Shown here piece by piece: positions 21,578 through 28,671 of a DNA stretch of 34,523 nucleotides. Below the pieces are notes generated by a model that did not search any database, was not told the DNA's origin, and saw nothing but the letters and a program-made list of their open reading frames with translations. The DNA lies in contig JBHLKM010000027.1 of NCBI GenBank assembly GCA_048886685.1, positions 1-34,523 on the forward strand, written 5' to 3'. The position numbers and the translations under genes were made by a program. The stretch's first letter is position 1; every line of letters starts with the position of its first letter. Origin of the DNA: Candidatus Hodarchaeota archaeon (GTDB lineage Archaea > Asgardarchaeota > Lokiarchaeia > Sigyniarchaeales > SOKP01).

Positions 21578-21790
21578 TTAGACTATTTTCATTGCTAAGT
21601 CCATATCCTCTAAAGTTAACTTCTTCCTGCCGGCGTGTCGAGTCATTTCAAGAGCTTTATTTGTCATGCCTTTAGCTAATTTCTCTAAATAATCAATTAG
21701 AGCATCGACAGCATCTCGAGCAACCATTTCCGCACCATTATCCTTCATTAACTTTCGAACTGGACTCCAAGCAAAAACTTTCTTTGCCAT
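21578..21790 (-). CDS. Archaeal histone (HMf-like histone fold)
   Basis: SPVRKLMKDNGAEMVARDAV...ALEMTRHAGRKKLTLEDMDLA, 70 aa, GGAGG SD-like motif upstream. Confidence 0.93.
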   Translation of the reverse strand: MAKKVFAWSPVRKLMKDNGAEMVARDAVDALIDYLEKLAKGMTNKALEMTRHAGRKKLTLEDMDLAMKIV

Positions 21791-24606: not shown

Positions 24607-26175
24607 TTAATACTTATCATCAATATTTGAAAGCATCGATTTCAGTTGATCAAATATATCAATGCGAAAGTCAGTTCCAATTCTGAAAAAGAATAATGAG
24701 ATTGCTTTTTCATCGAGTTGCTCATCAACATTTAATTCTTCAATAAATTGAGACCAACTACTGCTTGCTGATGCTCTAATTCCAATTAATACAACACCAT
24801 TATCTTTTATATTTCCAATAATTTTTATAATTATATCTTTCCATTTGAGATCTACATGCTCCTTCTCTCTGGCATCAAAAATACAAAAAACACCATCAGA
24901 ACTTGAAACATCATCAATAGCGGTATAAAGGTGTTGCTTTATTATCAATCCATTCGAATATTGGAAAACTTGTTCGTCATCATAATCTCTTAAAGATGAA
25001 CTTTCTCCTAATTTTTTTATTTTAGTAAGAGCTTGTAAACCAGGACTCCACATCATGCTTTCTGTAATAAATGAAATCGTCAAAACAATTTTTTTCTTTA
25101 AGATTGATACAATCTTATCGTATAATATGTCACTCCGTCTATTATCCTCAATTTCTTTACTTTTCATTACATAATGATAAGAGATCAAATTAAAAGCATC
25201 CTCAATATTTTCTCCAGTCAATGCACTCGTTTCAATATAAGAAAGCTTTATTTTTTCCCTCTCAGATAATTCATTTGCCCGTTTTACACCCTCTTGATAA
25301 AATATTTGACGACCTACTTTTAAATCAGACTTATTTCCTACCAAAACAATTGGAATTTCCTCGTCTGTAGTAAAGTCTTTTAATTCTTGATACCAATTTT
25401 TAATATTGTCGAATGATTCGCGGTTTGTTAAATCAAAAACTATAAAAGCTGCTTGAGCTCCTGAATAATAAACCTTTCGAAAACGACGGAAATACTTTTG
25501 AGCACCTAGGTCGTACAGAGTTACACCAATTTCATTACCAAAAAACTCAAAAGTATGTGTTAAGACATTAAGACCTATCGTTGCGCGATAATCCTCTGAA
25601 AACTTGTTCTCGACAAATCTCCGAATAATAGAGGTTTTCCCGACTTCATGATTGCCCAGAATCACAAACTTAAAACGATATTCTCCTCGTGTTGCTAGTT
25701 CCATTTGATATAGTTGATTTTTTAACCTTAATACATTCTCTGCTTCATACTCAAAATTAGGAACAGAAATTTGAATTAAATCACCTTCATCAGCAGTTAA
25801 AATTTGAGCTGTTTTTTCGGCAAGGAATAAACCATATGGTGACAATTTCTCAATAGATGCCATATTATCAAGTACTAAACTTAATATTCGTTCCTCATCA
25901 ACAGAGATAAATAAGAGGCGGTGTTCCTCGGTATCAAAACTCGCATTTCCAAATTTCTTAAACGCAAATTCATTACGCATACGTTGTAATACAGGATTTA
26001 TAATTATGCTTAAAACAGATACTAATTCAATATCTATATCTTTCCTTTTTTCACCAGCAATAATTAAACCTTCACTATCGGAAACAATTAGTGCTTCTAC
26101 TTCCTCATTTATCTCTAAAAATTTGTTGAATAAATCGGTAAATAACTTATTTTTGCGTAATACCAAGGATACCAT
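24607..26175 (-). CDS. Roadblock/LAMTOR-like domain + Rab-like small GTPase + degenerate G-domain-like C-terminus (paralogue 1)
   Basis: VEALIVSDSEGLIIAG (roadblock), G1 GNHEVGKT, G2 YRATIG, G3 YDLGAQ, YYSGA, G4 GNKSD, G5 ETSAL. Confidence 0.88.
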   Translation of the reverse strand: MVSLVLRKNKLFTDLFNKFLEINEEVEALIVSDSEGLIIAGEKRKDIDIELVSVLSIIINPVLQRMRNEFAFKKFGNASFDTEEHRLLFISVDEERILSLVLDNMASIEKLSPYGLFLAEKTAQILTADEGDLIQISVPNFEYEAENVLRLKNQLYQMELATRGEYRFKFVILGNHEVGKTSIIRRFVENKFSEDYRATIGLNVLTHTFEFFGNEIGVTLYDLGAQKYFRRFRKVYYSGAQAAFIVFDLTNRESFDNIKNWYQELKDFTTDEEIPIVLVGNKSDLKVGRQIFYQEGVKRANELSEREKIKLSYIETSALTGENIEDAFNLISYHYVMKSKEIEDNRRSDILYDKIVSILKKKIVLTISFITESMMWSPGLQALTKIKKLGESSSLRDYDDEQVFQYSNGLIIKQHLYTAIDDVSSSDGVFCIFDAREKEHVDLKWKDIIIKIIGNIKDNGVVLIGIRASASSSWSQFIEELNVDEQLDEKAISLFFFRIGTDFRIDIFDQLKSMLSNIDDKY

Positions 26176-26309
26176 ACCCGATTCGTTTTTATCTATATAG
26201 TAAAATTACTATTTATTATTTTTTATTATTAGCAATTATGTATTTGTGAGATTAAGATGAAAGTATGATTTTTTCAATATTATGAAAAGACGCAATTTTG
26301 TAAAATCTT

Positions 26310-27896
26310 TTAGATATATTTGATGGTATTCAGCATTACTTTGAGTTGATCAAAAATTTCTAGTCTATATTCAACCCCTATTTTGAAAAATAATAAAGAA
26401 ACCATTTTTTGATCCAATAATTCGTTAACATTGAATTCTTCCATTATTCGTGACCAGTCGTTTTTTTCAGTGACCCGTATCCCAATTAAGACTACTTTAT
26501 TCTCCTCTATATCATTTATGATATTGATTACAACGTCTCTCCATTCTGGATCGATATGATCCTCATAACGAGCATCAAATATACAAAAAACTCCATCAGA
26601 ATTAGATACATCAAAATTTTTATAGAGATAATTCCTCAATATCACCCCATTAGAGAATTTATATACTTTTTCATCATACTCATCCTTAATCTTCTCAAGT
26701 ATATACTCGCTATTAATATCTGAAAGTATTTGCAAGCCTGGACTCCAGAATTCGTTTTCTGATATTACAGTTAATATGAACAAGTTTTCTAAATTCACTC
26801 CTTGTTTTTTTCTTTTCTCTAATATCAAGTTGAGCTCATTTAATAAATCTTGTTTCACAATTTTCTCTTCTTCTTGCTTACTTTGAGAAATATAATGATA
26901 TGCGATTAGTGTAAATGCATCCTCTACGTTTTCTCCTGTTAAAGCGCTTGTTTCGATGTATGAAGCCTTAATATTAACATTTTTTGAAAGGGTGCTTACT
27001 AAATCCACTCCATTTTGATAAGAAATTGCTCTTTGTTCCCTTAAATCAATCTTATTTCCGATTATTATTAATGGGATTTGTCTTTGGTCAATAAATTTTT
27101 CTAATTCGTCATACCATTTCATGACATTATCAAATGATTCCTTTTTTGTTAGATCAAACACAATAAATGCAGCTTGAGCTCCCAAATAATAAGTTTGACG
27201 AAATCTTGCGAAAAATGATTGAGCCCCTATATCCCACAGGCTGTAAGCAACTTTGTTGCCATAAAATTCTATATTGTGGCTTAATATATTTAATCCTATC
27301 GTAGCACGATAATCATGGGAGAACCTATTCTCTACAAACCTTCTTACTAAAGAAGTCTTACCTACTTCATGATCTCCTATGATAACGAACTTAAATCGAT
27401 AAGTACCCCCTTGGTCAAGTCTCAATTGATAAATTTGATTTTTTACTCTTTCTTCAGTTGCAGAAGCATCGGTTTCATATTCAAAATGAGGAATCGTCAT
27501 TTGAATATTATCACCTTCCTCTGCATTGAGTATTTGGACTGCTTTTTCTGCAAGCAAATATGCATAAGGGGAAGCTTTATCAACTGATGCCATATTATTA
27601 AGGACAATGCTTAATGTTCTCCTTTCATCGAGGGAAATGAATAAAAGTCTGTAAAACTCTGTATCAAAACTCGCAGTCCCAAATTCTCTAAACGCAAATT
27701 CATCACGAATTCTTTCCAAGATAGGATTGATGATAGAAGTTAAAACGGATACTATTTCCATATCTATTTCTTTTCTTTTTTCACCTGCTATTACTAAGCC
27801 TTGTTGATCACTTACAATAACAGCCTCAACATCTTTATTAATTTCTAAGAAAAGATTAAATATTTTTACAAAAAGCTCATTTCTATTTATTGACAA
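26310..27896 (-). CDS. Roadblock/LAMTOR-like domain + Rab-like small GTPase + degenerate G-domain-like C-terminus (paralogue 2)
   Basis: VEAVIVSDQQGLVIAG, G1 GDHEVGKT, YRATIG, WDIGAQ, YYLGA, GNKID, ETSAL. Alignable end-to-end with 24607-26175. Confidence 0.88.
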   Translation of the reverse strand: MSINRNELFVKIFNLFLEINKDVEAVIVSDQQGLVIAGEKRKEIDMEIVSVLTSIINPILERIRDEFAFREFGTASFDTEFYRLLFISLDERRTLSIVLNNMASVDKASPYAYLLAEKAVQILNAEEGDNIQMTIPHFEYETDASATEERVKNQIYQLRLDQGGTYRFKFVIIGDHEVGKTSLVRRFVENRFSHDYRATIGLNILSHNIEFYGNKVAYSLWDIGAQSFFARFRQTYYLGAQAAFIVFDLTKKESFDNVMKWYDELEKFIDQRQIPLIIIGNKIDLREQRAISYQNGVDLVSTLSKNVNIKASYIETSALTGENVEDAFTLIAYHYISQSKQEEEKIVKQDLLNELNLILEKRKKQGVNLENLFILTVISENEFWSPGLQILSDINSEYILEKIKDEYDEKVYKFSNGVILRNYLYKNFDVSNSDGVFCIFDARYEDHIDPEWRDVVINIINDIEENKVVLIGIRVTEKNDWSRIMEEFNVNELLDQKMVSLLFFKIGVEYRLEIFDQLKVMLNTIKYI

Positions 27897-28092: not shown

Positions 28093-28671
28093 ATGCCTTC
28101 TTGTATAGTTTGCCATTTACAGATAGACGAGAGCAAAGATTCGTTTTATAAGTGTGAAAATGGACACCCAATTCATGATAAGTGTCTAGCAGATTGGTTA
28201 ATGCATTCACAAAACTGTCCATTATGCAGTGATCCTTATTCTCCAAGTGTGATATCTAAATTTAAGGTTTTTATGGAAGAAAAAGAAAAGGAAAAGCAAG
28301 AAGCCTTAGAAGAGGAATTAAAAAAAGAAACTCTAAAGAAAATGGAAAAAGTAACAAATAATATTATTTTCCTCAAATTTATTGACTCTGTTGAGTCACT
28401 TATTGAAGATAAAAACTATAATGTTGCTATCGACTTACTTATTGAATCCTATAATGAAACCTTGTTTGATGATCAAAATTTAAAAGTGTTATTCTTGCTT
28501 GGAAAAGTAAACTACCTAAGAGGGAGGTATGATTTAGCAATTAATTTCTTATTTAAATTAGTTAAATTAAAATTTGATTATCCTGATGGCTTTCTATTTC
28601 TTGGGAAATCATATGAGGCATTGGGGATGAAAGATAAGGCAGAATGGGCTTATCAAAGAATTAAACAATAA
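28093..28671 (+). CDS. RING-H2 finger + coiled coil + TPR protein (putative E3 ligase)
   Basis: CIVC-x13-CENGHPIHDKCLADWL-x5-CPLC, E/K-rich helix, TPR-like units LFLLGKVNYLRGRYDLAI and FLFLGKSYEALGMKDKAEWAY. Confidence 0.82.
   Translation: MPSCIVCHLQIDESKDSFYKCENGHPIHDKCLADWLMHSQNCPLCSDPYSPSVISKFKVFMEEKEKEKQEALEEELKKETLKKMEKVTNNIIFLKFIDSVESLIEDKNYNVAIDLLIESYNETLFDDQNLKVLFLLGKVNYLRGRYDLAINFLFKLVKLKFDYPDGFLFLGKSYEALGMKDKAEWAYQRIKQ

What the first reader, a model, noticed from the sequence alone, without database searches (positions are those of the whole stretch)
24607..27896. Tandem roadblock-Rab-pseudoGTPase paralogues: a possible Rag-like heterodimeric switch with inverted architecture
Seen: two full-length paralogues, each with an N-terminal roadblock-like domain, a Rab-like G domain (YRATIG, YY.GA, ETSAL) and a conserved ~160-aa C-terminal domain. 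Neither has a C-terminal Cys prenylation motif. Established: Rag/Gtr GTPases are G-domain + C-terminal roadblock and heterodimerise via the roadblock, and MglB roadblocks regulate MglA. Inference: an adjacent diverged pair forming a roadblock-mediated heterodimer with a built-in regulator and four G-type folds. I do not recognise this three-domain arrangement from any characterised protein.
Basis: partly seen in the sequence, partly recalled or inferred. Interest (0 to 1): 0.8.

Follow-up and report, generated by a model that had tools for sequence, protein, structure and literature searches.

The report
Paired roadblock-GTPase-pseudoGTPase genes in Lokiarchaeia
Two neighbouring genes of an Asgard archaeon encode sister switch proteins, each made of a dimerising roadblock domain, a Rab-like GTPase and a second GTPase-shaped domain that has lost its nucleotide-binding motifs; the three-part design appears undescribed, but many relatives manage with one copy, so the pair is probably not an obligate Rag-style heterodimer.

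Summary
Two intact co-oriented paralogues (528 and 519/522 aa, 55% identical) lie in a Lokiarchaeia genome. Each has an N-terminal roadblock, a Rab-like G domain (NKxD, Ala at the Ras-Gly60 position), and a C-terminal G-fold that lacks G1/G3/G4. Its model best matches Arf-GDP structures (Z 13.5). All three domains are under purifying selection. The roadblock-Rab order is already published for MK-D1 (Tran 2024); I found no paper on the third domain. The tandem pair is kept in about 38/52 and 37/42 genomes of two genera. However, nine sister genera have one gene at the same locus, several near-complete genomes hold only one family member, and the upstream copy was lost at least twice. The roadblock dimer surface shows little specialisation between the copies. 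A heterodimer prediction gave only weak support (0.48 vs 0.00 control). Best reading: an ancestrally self-pairing roadblock-Rab switch with a pseudoGTPase docking module, duplicated later, with optional heterodimers. It is not a Rag. This scan already reported the same pair on other genomes' DNA (e1-3053111 and others).

The parts
26310..27896 (-). Paralogue B (upstream), 528 aa, TTG start; roadblock + Rab-like GTPase + pseudoGTPase
   Evidence: orthologue clade with SH-aLRT 100; dN/dS about 0.07
27528..27884 (-). B roadblock/LC7 domain (aa ~5-123)
26889..27404 (-). B Rab-like G domain (aa 165-336): G1 GDHEVGKTS, switch I YRATIG, G3 WDIGAQ, G4 NKID, G5 ETSAL
27219..27233 (-). B G3 motif DIGAQ, with Ala at the Ras Gly60 position
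26316..26855 (-). B C-terminal pseudoGTPase domain (aa 348-527); WSPG replaces the P-loop; no DxxG or NKxD; leading helix continuous with helix 5 of the active G domain
26167..26309 (.). AT-rich spacer (143 bp to the TTG); 80-170 bp in most relatives, but holds 2-3 other genes in at least four genomes; possibly A's own promoter
   Evidence: (promoter motif evidence is weak and post hoc)
24607..26175 (-). Paralogue A (downstream), 522 aa from ATG, probably 519 aa from TTG at 26166
   Evidence: orthologue clade with SH-aLRT 100; dN/dS about 0.09
25798..26154 (-). A roadblock/LC7 domain
25168..25683 (-). A Rab-like G domain: G1 GNHEVGKTS, G3 YDLGAQ, G4 NKSD, G5 ETSAL
24619..25128 (-). A C-terminal pseudoGTPase domain
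28093..28671 (+). Context: RING-finger + TPR gene lying head-to-head with B; same neighbour in 11 genera of the family whether the locus has one copy or two; functional link not shown

Best explanation
A and B belong to a Lokiarchaeia family derived from the known two-domain roadblock-Rab ('RG') proteins by addition of a C-terminal pseudoGTPase. SHOWN: the anatomy, the motifs, the selection and the gene distribution. INFERRED (from MglB, LAMTOR and Rag roadblock pairing): the roadblock domain pairs with a second copy and brings two Rab-like G domains together. A poorly ordered ~25-residue linker (aa 138-162) could let a G domain dock on the roadblock dimer, as MglA does on MglB, giving built-in GAP/GEF-type control. 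The G domain very likely binds GTP/GDP (G1, switch-I Thr, Asp of G3, G4 and G5 intact). It probably hydrolyses slowly or switches in an unusual way without help, because Ala replaces the Ras-Gly60 glycine and His/Glu fill the Ras-12/13 positions. The third domain is attached by one continuous helix, cannot bind guanine nucleotide by the standard motifs, resembles the closed Arf-GDP shape, and most likely serves as a nucleotide-independent docking module. The ancestral protein was single-copy and so most likely self-pairing. A later tandem duplication gave A and B, which kept a nearly unchanged pairing surface and probably form a mix of AA, BB and AB dimers, while diverging mostly in the pseudoGTPase domain (different partners). 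The heterodimer is optional, not obligate.
For: Single gene at the same RING-adjacent locus in 9 genera; whole-genome single match in G193, G195, G201, G275, G277, G279, G174, G010, G206, G218, G219 (93-100% complete). A-type alone in a four-genome subclade and in G240 (99% complete). Roadblock helix2-strand3 region is 74% identical between A and B, the same as among single-copy genes (74%), with only two fixed, conservative differences (I/L, I/M); the pseudoGTPase domain is only 47% identical. dN/dS 0.04-0.17 in all three domains of both copies, from few pairs. Ala at the Gly60 position in 133 of 135 family members counting Ser variants as non-Gly exceptions aside (only 3 'other' copies and 4 outgroup members keep Gly), versus Gly in 69 of the 76 scored GTPases of this genome, where 5 of the 6 Ala cases are this family. 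H-Ras G60A favours state 1 and has impaired intrinsic GTPase activity (PMC4867591). A:B roadblock+G prediction: weak support, score 0.48 vs best control 0.00, runs agree in at least 66% of contacts, partner pLDDT at least 68. The mark was reached by 58/80 solved and 2/110 mismatched pairs, but at 0.60 or under by only 7/80 solved and by both mismatches; likeness to solved roadblock dimers may explain it.
Against: No biochemistry. Homodimers were not predicted (one job only). The roadblock domain is the least confident part of the model (pLDDT 47-86). Roadblock-bearing Asgard GTPases can be monomers (PDB title LokiRagM, 9m28). Retention of both copies in about 75 of 94 genomes of two genera also fits a stronger mutual dependence. 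The effect of G60A is borrowed from Ras and may not hold here.
Confidence: 0.5

Rival explanations
1. Obligate or strongly preferred A:B heterodimer that works like RagA/RagC, with the two active G domains in coupled, opposite nucleotide states.
For: Pair kept in fixed order in about 38/52 and 37/42 genomes of two genera. The best tree has one old duplication (upstream copies together SH-aLRT 90, downstream 78). 39 fixed A/B differences within the genus. Weak A:B prediction, 0.48 vs 0.00. MK-D1 has an operonic Rag-like pair predicted to heterodimerise (PMC10933270).
Against: B was lost at least twice while A remained; single-copy state in nine genera; pairing surface not visibly specialised; no clear on/off asymmetry in G1-G5 between A and B; other genes inserted between the two in at least four genomes, so not a tight operon. 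Independent duplications in the two genera are not rejected (p-AU 0.12 and 0.10).
Confidence: 0.2
2. A and B are separately regulated paralogues that act independently (each as its own homodimer, with different partners via the pseudoGTPase domain); adjacency is only a relic of tandem duplication.
For: Three more unlinked copies in this genome (C22, C44, C32). Tandem duplicates recur in the family, e.g. a young pair in genus g12. Spacer of 80-170 bp with a weakly conserved motif about 52 nt before the downstream gene. Divergence is concentrated in the C-terminal domain.
Against: The conserved pairing surface makes cross-pairing hard to avoid if both are expressed together. Weak A:B prediction.
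Confidence: 0.2
3. The roadblock pairs in trans with stand-alone roadblock proteins, or the chain is a monomer; the proteins are subunits of a larger Ragulator-like assembly rather than dimers of each other.
For: The genome has 18 further PF03259 matches above the cut-off, many in small ORFs. Ragulator roadblocks bind Rag roadblocks (PMC10933270). A monomeric Loki Rag-like structure exists (9m28).
Against: No stand-alone roadblock gene was seen among the conserved neighbours. The single-copy state is simplest to explain by self-pairing.
Confidence: 0.1

Closest known systems
Two-domain roadblock-GTPase ('RG') proteins of Prometheoarchaeum syntrophicum MK-D1 (Tran et al. 2024, PMC10933270; e.g. 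WP_162306515.1, WP_147664993.1, WP_147663391.1) and roadblock-Ras fusions of Lokiarchaeum (reviewed in PMC4917890)
   Same: N-terminal roadblock followed by a Rab-like G domain, no terminal Cys. The N-terminal profile finds such 320-360 aa RG proteins in this genome and in a sister family.
   Different: They end after the G domain and nearly all keep the G3 glycine. The window proteins add a ~180-aa pseudoGTPase, carry DxGAQ, and occur as a tandem pair.
Rag/Gtr GTPases (RagA/B-RagC/D, Gtr1-Gtr2) and Asgard Rag-like proteins (LokiRagO 8yl2, LokiRagM 9m28)
   Same: G domain and roadblock in one chain; pairing through roadblocks is plausible.
   Different: Domain order reversed; G domain is Rab-like with NKxD; extra pseudoGTPase; single-copy state common; heterodimer not shown.
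MglA-MglB (Myxococcus, Thermus)
   Same: A roadblock dimer that can act as GAP and GEF for a small GTPase (PMC11016934).
   Different: Here fused in one chain at 1:1 rather than 1 MglA per MglB dimer. The G domain is not MglA-like: it lacks the Arg directly before the switch-I Thr. Regulatory activity is untested.
Class i pseudoGTPase domains (p190RhoGAP pG1/pG2, PMC5593906; AAGAB, PMC12490416; CENP-M)
   Same: G fold with lost nucleotide motifs, used for protein binding. p190RhoGAP also places pseudoGTPase domains in a chain with another GTPase-like domain. Atlas feature search ranks CENP-M third, score 0.89, a lead only.
   Different: No sequence homology shown; archaeal; directly appended to an intact Rab-like domain; shape closest to Arf-GDP. 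Nucleotide binding not tested.
Asgard ArfR GTPases (HodArfR1-GDP, 8oul; bioRxiv 10.1101/2024.02.28.582541)
   Same: Best structural match of the third domain (Z 13.5, rmsd 3.4 A, 160 residues), including the leading helix; the model has an extra strand where Arf-GDP switch I forms one.
   Different: Only 11% identity and no G motifs. Descent from an Arf rather than from a copy of the protein's own Rab domain is unresolved.

Membership tests
Roadblock/LC7 | Profile match to PF03259 or solved roadblocks | tested here: met
   24/27 members hit at a lax threshold, best E 1.5e-6, window B alone only E 0.06; family profile vs 7yh1 E 1.3e-4
Roadblock/LC7 | alpha-beta-beta-alpha-beta-beta-beta-alpha topology (not longin) | tested here: met
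   AF2 elements H5-19, E23-30, E35-40, H46-66, E74-78, E82-88, E93-100, H105-123
Roadblock/LC7 | Dimer through helix 2 / strand 3 | tested here: inconclusive
   A:B score 0.48 vs control 0.00, weak, no interface returned
Rab-like small GTPases (Asgard) | G1, switch-I Thr, G4 NKxD, G5 SAx | tested here: met
Rab-like small GTPases (Asgard) | Canonical G3 DxxGQ | tested here: not met
   DxGAQ in both proteins and in nearly all core-family members
Eukaryotic Rab | C-terminal prenylated cysteines | tested here: not met
   0 of 133 members; absence is general for MK-D1 GTPases (PMC10933270)
Rag/Gtr GTPases | Rag-type G domain (Gtr1_RagA, HKxD) | tested here: not met
   No PF04670 hit at E<=1 for either window protein; G4 is NKxD; Rab folds Z 28 vs RagD 17.8. 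Some homologues carry a precomputed PF04670 cross-hit.
Rag/Gtr GTPases | Roadblock C-terminal to the G domain | tested here: not met
   Roadblock is N-terminal
Rag/Gtr GTPases | Obligate heterodimer of two paralogues | tested here: inconclusive
   Genomic pattern argues against obligacy; weak prediction; no experiment
Rag/Gtr GTPases | Coupled opposite nucleotide states | not testable with these tools
   needs biochemistry
PseudoGTPase (class i) | G-domain fold | tested here: met
PseudoGTPase (class i) | Loss of G1/G3/G4 motifs | tested here: met
   WSPG at the P-loop position, no DxxG, IGIR for NKxD, in all groups
PseudoGTPase (class i) | No nucleotide binding or hydrolysis in vitro | not testable with these tools
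   needs mant-GTP, thermal shift or ITC
MglA/MglB | MglA-type switch I with intrinsic Arg next to Thr | tested here: not met
   Switch I reads YRATIG, Rab-like
MglA/MglB | Roadblock acts as GAP/GEF | not testable with these tools
   needs kinetics

The most novel reading that the evidence does not exclude
The family is a living example of a roadblock-GTPase homodimer turning into a heterodimer. Single-copy genera keep a self-regulated homodimer, while two genera have evolved a preferred A:B dimer with asymmetric nucleotide states, a non-canonical (G60A-type) switch that needs the fused roadblock to fire, and two different pseudoGTPase docking modules. This would parallel, independently, how eukaryotic Rag heterodimers are thought to have arisen.
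Probability: 0.2. Interest if true: 0.75.

Novelty: new variant of a known kind. Interest (0 to 1): 0.48.

Why it matters
No Asgard small GTPase has a matched regulator or effector; Tran et al. note that genome layout rarely pairs them. Here the candidate regulator (roadblock), the switch and a docking module sit in one soluble chain, so cis GAP/GEF action can be tested directly. I found no paper describing an archaeal pseudoGTPase domain fused behind an intact Rab-like domain (8 library searches, incomplete coverage). Natural single-copy and two-copy versions at the same locus allow a direct comparison of homodimer and heterodimer states. The limit: the three-domain form was found only in one order of Lokiarchaeia (129 of 398 phylum genomes, with one likely mis-binned exception), so it is a lineage-specific invention, not an ancestor of Rag.

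Tried and rejected
Rag membership: rejected on motifs, fold and domain order. Longin instead of roadblock: rejected on topology. Natural A-B fusion: the 958-aa ORF in G222 is an assembly gap read as X. Single genes of the window's genus as B/A chimeras: not supported, they are closer to A along almost the whole length. One versus two duplications: AU tests do not reject independent events. The full ultrafast-bootstrap tree timed out, so supports are SH-aLRT from short searches on subsets of rows. Origin of the third domain: profile-profile alignments to the own G domain, to the genome's Rab-like and to its Arf/Rag-like GTPases were all weak (probability 50, 52, 14%), so unresolved. Stand-alone relatives of the third domain: the 1.84-billion search gave 49 hits, nearly all family members or fragments. 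Promoter scan uses bacterial consensus and was at chance level. A motif about 52 nt before the downstream gene was picked by eye and found in only 4/20 and 4/14 loci, a weak lead. No RNA holder was listed, which says nothing on expression. Family not found in G016, G212, G225, G278 (89-98% complete), but the RING neighbour is missing there too, so assembly gaps are possible. No papers on LokiRagO/LokiRagM were found in the library. Klinger et al. 2016 was not read directly; it is cited through PMC4917890. Genome counts of pairs were tallied by hand, and kin genomes are not independent.
Full report
OBSERVATION. The stretch holds two intact minus-strand genes: B (27896-26310, 528 aa, TTG) upstream and A (26175-24607, 522 aa; probably 519 aa from TTG at 26166) downstream. 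They are 55% identical end to end. Homologues carry Promethearchaeota/Lokiarchaeota labels, and the genome has 97 small-GTPase-like ORFs, so this is a Lokiarchaeia-type Asgard archaeon.

ANATOMY. Residues ~5-123 are a roadblock: PF03259 hits 24 of 27 family members at a lax threshold, the family profile hits PDB roadblock 7yh1 at E 1.3e-4, and the AF2 model has roadblock, not longin, element order. A poorly modelled linker (138-162) follows. Residues 165-336 are a Rab-like G domain (Pfam Ras E~1e-43; closest PDB sequence Thor-Rab; Rab folds up to Z 28). Helix 5 runs on as one helix (324-364) into the third domain. Modelled alone (pLDDT 92.5), that domain matches small GTPases, best HodArfR1-GDP (Z 13.5, rmsd 3.4 A, 160 residues) and other Arf-family proteins. 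The model has the leading helix and an extra strand that Arf-GDP structures show (10.1101/2024.02.28.582541). WSPG stands where the P-loop would be, and DxxG and NKxD are gone in every subgroup. The pseudoGTPase reading is therefore sound on fold and motifs, but untested biochemically. Whether the domain came from an Arf or from a copy of the Rab domain is unresolved.

THE ACTIVE G DOMAIN IS UNUSUAL. G1, the switch-I Thr, the G3 Asp and Gln, G4 and G5 are conserved. G3 reads DxGAQ, which puts Ala at the Ras Gly60 position in all but a few core-family members; 4 of 5 distant outgroup members keep Gly. In this genome 69 of 76 scored GTPases have Gly, and 5 of the 6 with Ala are this family. His is nearly fixed at the Ras-12 position. 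H-Ras G60A favours the inactive state 1 and hydrolyses GTP poorly (PMC4867591), so slow or regulator-dependent switching is a reasonable inference.

DISTRIBUTION. The genome has five three-domain members: this pair plus C22, C44 and a TPR-extended copy on C32. A profile of the third domain finds 129 of 398 phylum genomes: 122/132 of the window's family, 5 genomes of two other families of the order, 0/14 of a sister family, and one outside hit. That outside hit (G112) is 85-89% identical to the window on a 4.3-kb contig and is probably mis-binned. The sister family has only two-domain roadblock-Rab proteins of 320-360 aa, the 'RG' type listed for MK-D1 by Tran et al..

IS THE PAIR SPECIAL? In the window's genus about 38 of 52 genomes, and in genus g22 about 37 of 42, carry the two genes in the same order next to a divergent RING-TPR gene (hand tally). 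A and B orthologues form separate clades. The best tree joins the upstream copies of both genera (SH-aLRT 90) and the downstream copies (78), but independent duplications are not rejected (p-AU 0.12, 0.10). All three domains of both copies are under purifying selection (dN/dS 0.04-0.17, from 3-10 pairs per group). Against obligate partnership: nine other genera have a single gene at the same locus; about a dozen 91-100% complete genomes return only one family match; four genomes of the window's genus (94-99% complete) and G240 of g22 (99%) have only the A-type gene directly beside RING-TPR; and at least four genomes have other genes inserted between B and A. The predicted pairing region (helix 2-strand 3) is 74% identical between A and B, the same as among single-copy genes, with two conservative fixed differences, whereas the pseudoGTPase domains are 47% identical. 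I saw no verified case of B alone, though contig ends leave a few open.

COMPLEX PREDICTION. Roadblock+G of B with roadblock+G of A scored 0.48 against a best control of 0.00; runs agreed in at least 66% of contacts, partner pLDDT at least 68. The tool rates this weak: the mark was reached by 58/80 solved and 2/110 mismatched pairs, but at 0.60 or under by only 7/80 solved pairs and by both mismatches. Roadblock dimers are solved many times over, so the pass may reflect likeness. No interface was returned and homodimers could not be run.

MECHANISM (inferred). The roadblock pairs with a second copy, as roadblocks generally do. The tethered Rab-like domain can then be regulated in cis in the manner of MglB on MglA (PMC11016934). 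The pseudoGTPase is a fixed docking module, like AAGAB or p190RhoGAP pseudoGTPases (PMC12490416, PMC5593906). The ancestral single-copy protein most likely self-pairs. After duplication, A and B probably mix as homo- and heterodimers and differ mainly in partners (about 0.5). An obligate Rag-like heterodimer (0.2), fully independent paralogues (0.2) and pairing with free roadblocks or a monomer (0.1) remain open. There is no lipid anchor, and the cellular target is unknown.

COMPARISON AND NOVELTY. It is not a Rag (motifs, fold, order). It may work somewhat like one only in pairing G domains through roadblocks. The roadblock-Rab order and the lack of a terminal Cys are published (PMC10933270, PMC4917890). 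The C-terminal pseudoGTPase, the DxGAQ switch and the one-copy/two-copy pattern were not found in the papers searched. This scan had already noted the same pair in other genomes. That follow-up favoured a two-subunit switch; the wider sampling here weakens that part.

VERDICT. A real, selected, apparently undescribed three-domain variant of a known Asgard protein type. The heterodimer is possible but not required. Interest 0.48; new variant of a known kind.

Noticed in passing
window 28093-28671 (+): RING + TPR gene head-to-head with the GTPase locus in 11 genera of the family, with one or two GTPase copies; thiD/thiN/thiC are also usually next to it, so plain synteny is not excluded. It is missing along with the family in four genomes.
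   Followed up: partly
L066:5600-8284 (G000 C32); L148 (G197): Family members of 822-896 aa; the one in this genome has a long C-terminal TPR array after the pseudoGTPase domain.
   Followed up: partly
L053, L054, L060, L065, L067 and others: Unlinked 'third' copies of the family sit tail-to-tail with a ~1560-aa LamG/DUF2341 protein gene in about a dozen loci, across two different paralogue clades.
   Followed up: no
L123, L124 (genus g12): A separate, young tandem pair of near-identical family members, away from the RING locus: tandem duplication recurs in this family.
   Followed up: partly
L177:922-1920 (G024): A 333-aa roadblock-Rab protein with DIGSQ that groups with the three-domain family but lacks the third domain; long branch.
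   Followed up: no
L186 (G112 C309): The pair at 85-89% identity to the window on a 4.3-kb contig in a genome from a distant family: probably mis-binned. NCBI labels such as Thorarchaeota, Hodarchaeota or Odinarchaeota on close homologues may have the same cause.
   Followed up: partly
G000 C20:46447-48468 (-) and C2:401623-402453 (-): A 674-aa protein ending in a roadblock-Rab unit behind a ~340-aa unknown region, and a 277-aa protein with the same roadblock but no G domain.
   Followed up: no
window 21581-21790 (-): Archaeal histone gene (70 aa) kept a few kb downstream of the pair in most genomes of the genus.
   Followed up: no
L154:3143-3544 (G280): A 134-aa ORF holding only part of the pseudoGTPase domain, just downstream of a full-length gene; possibly a decayed second copy.
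   Followed up: no
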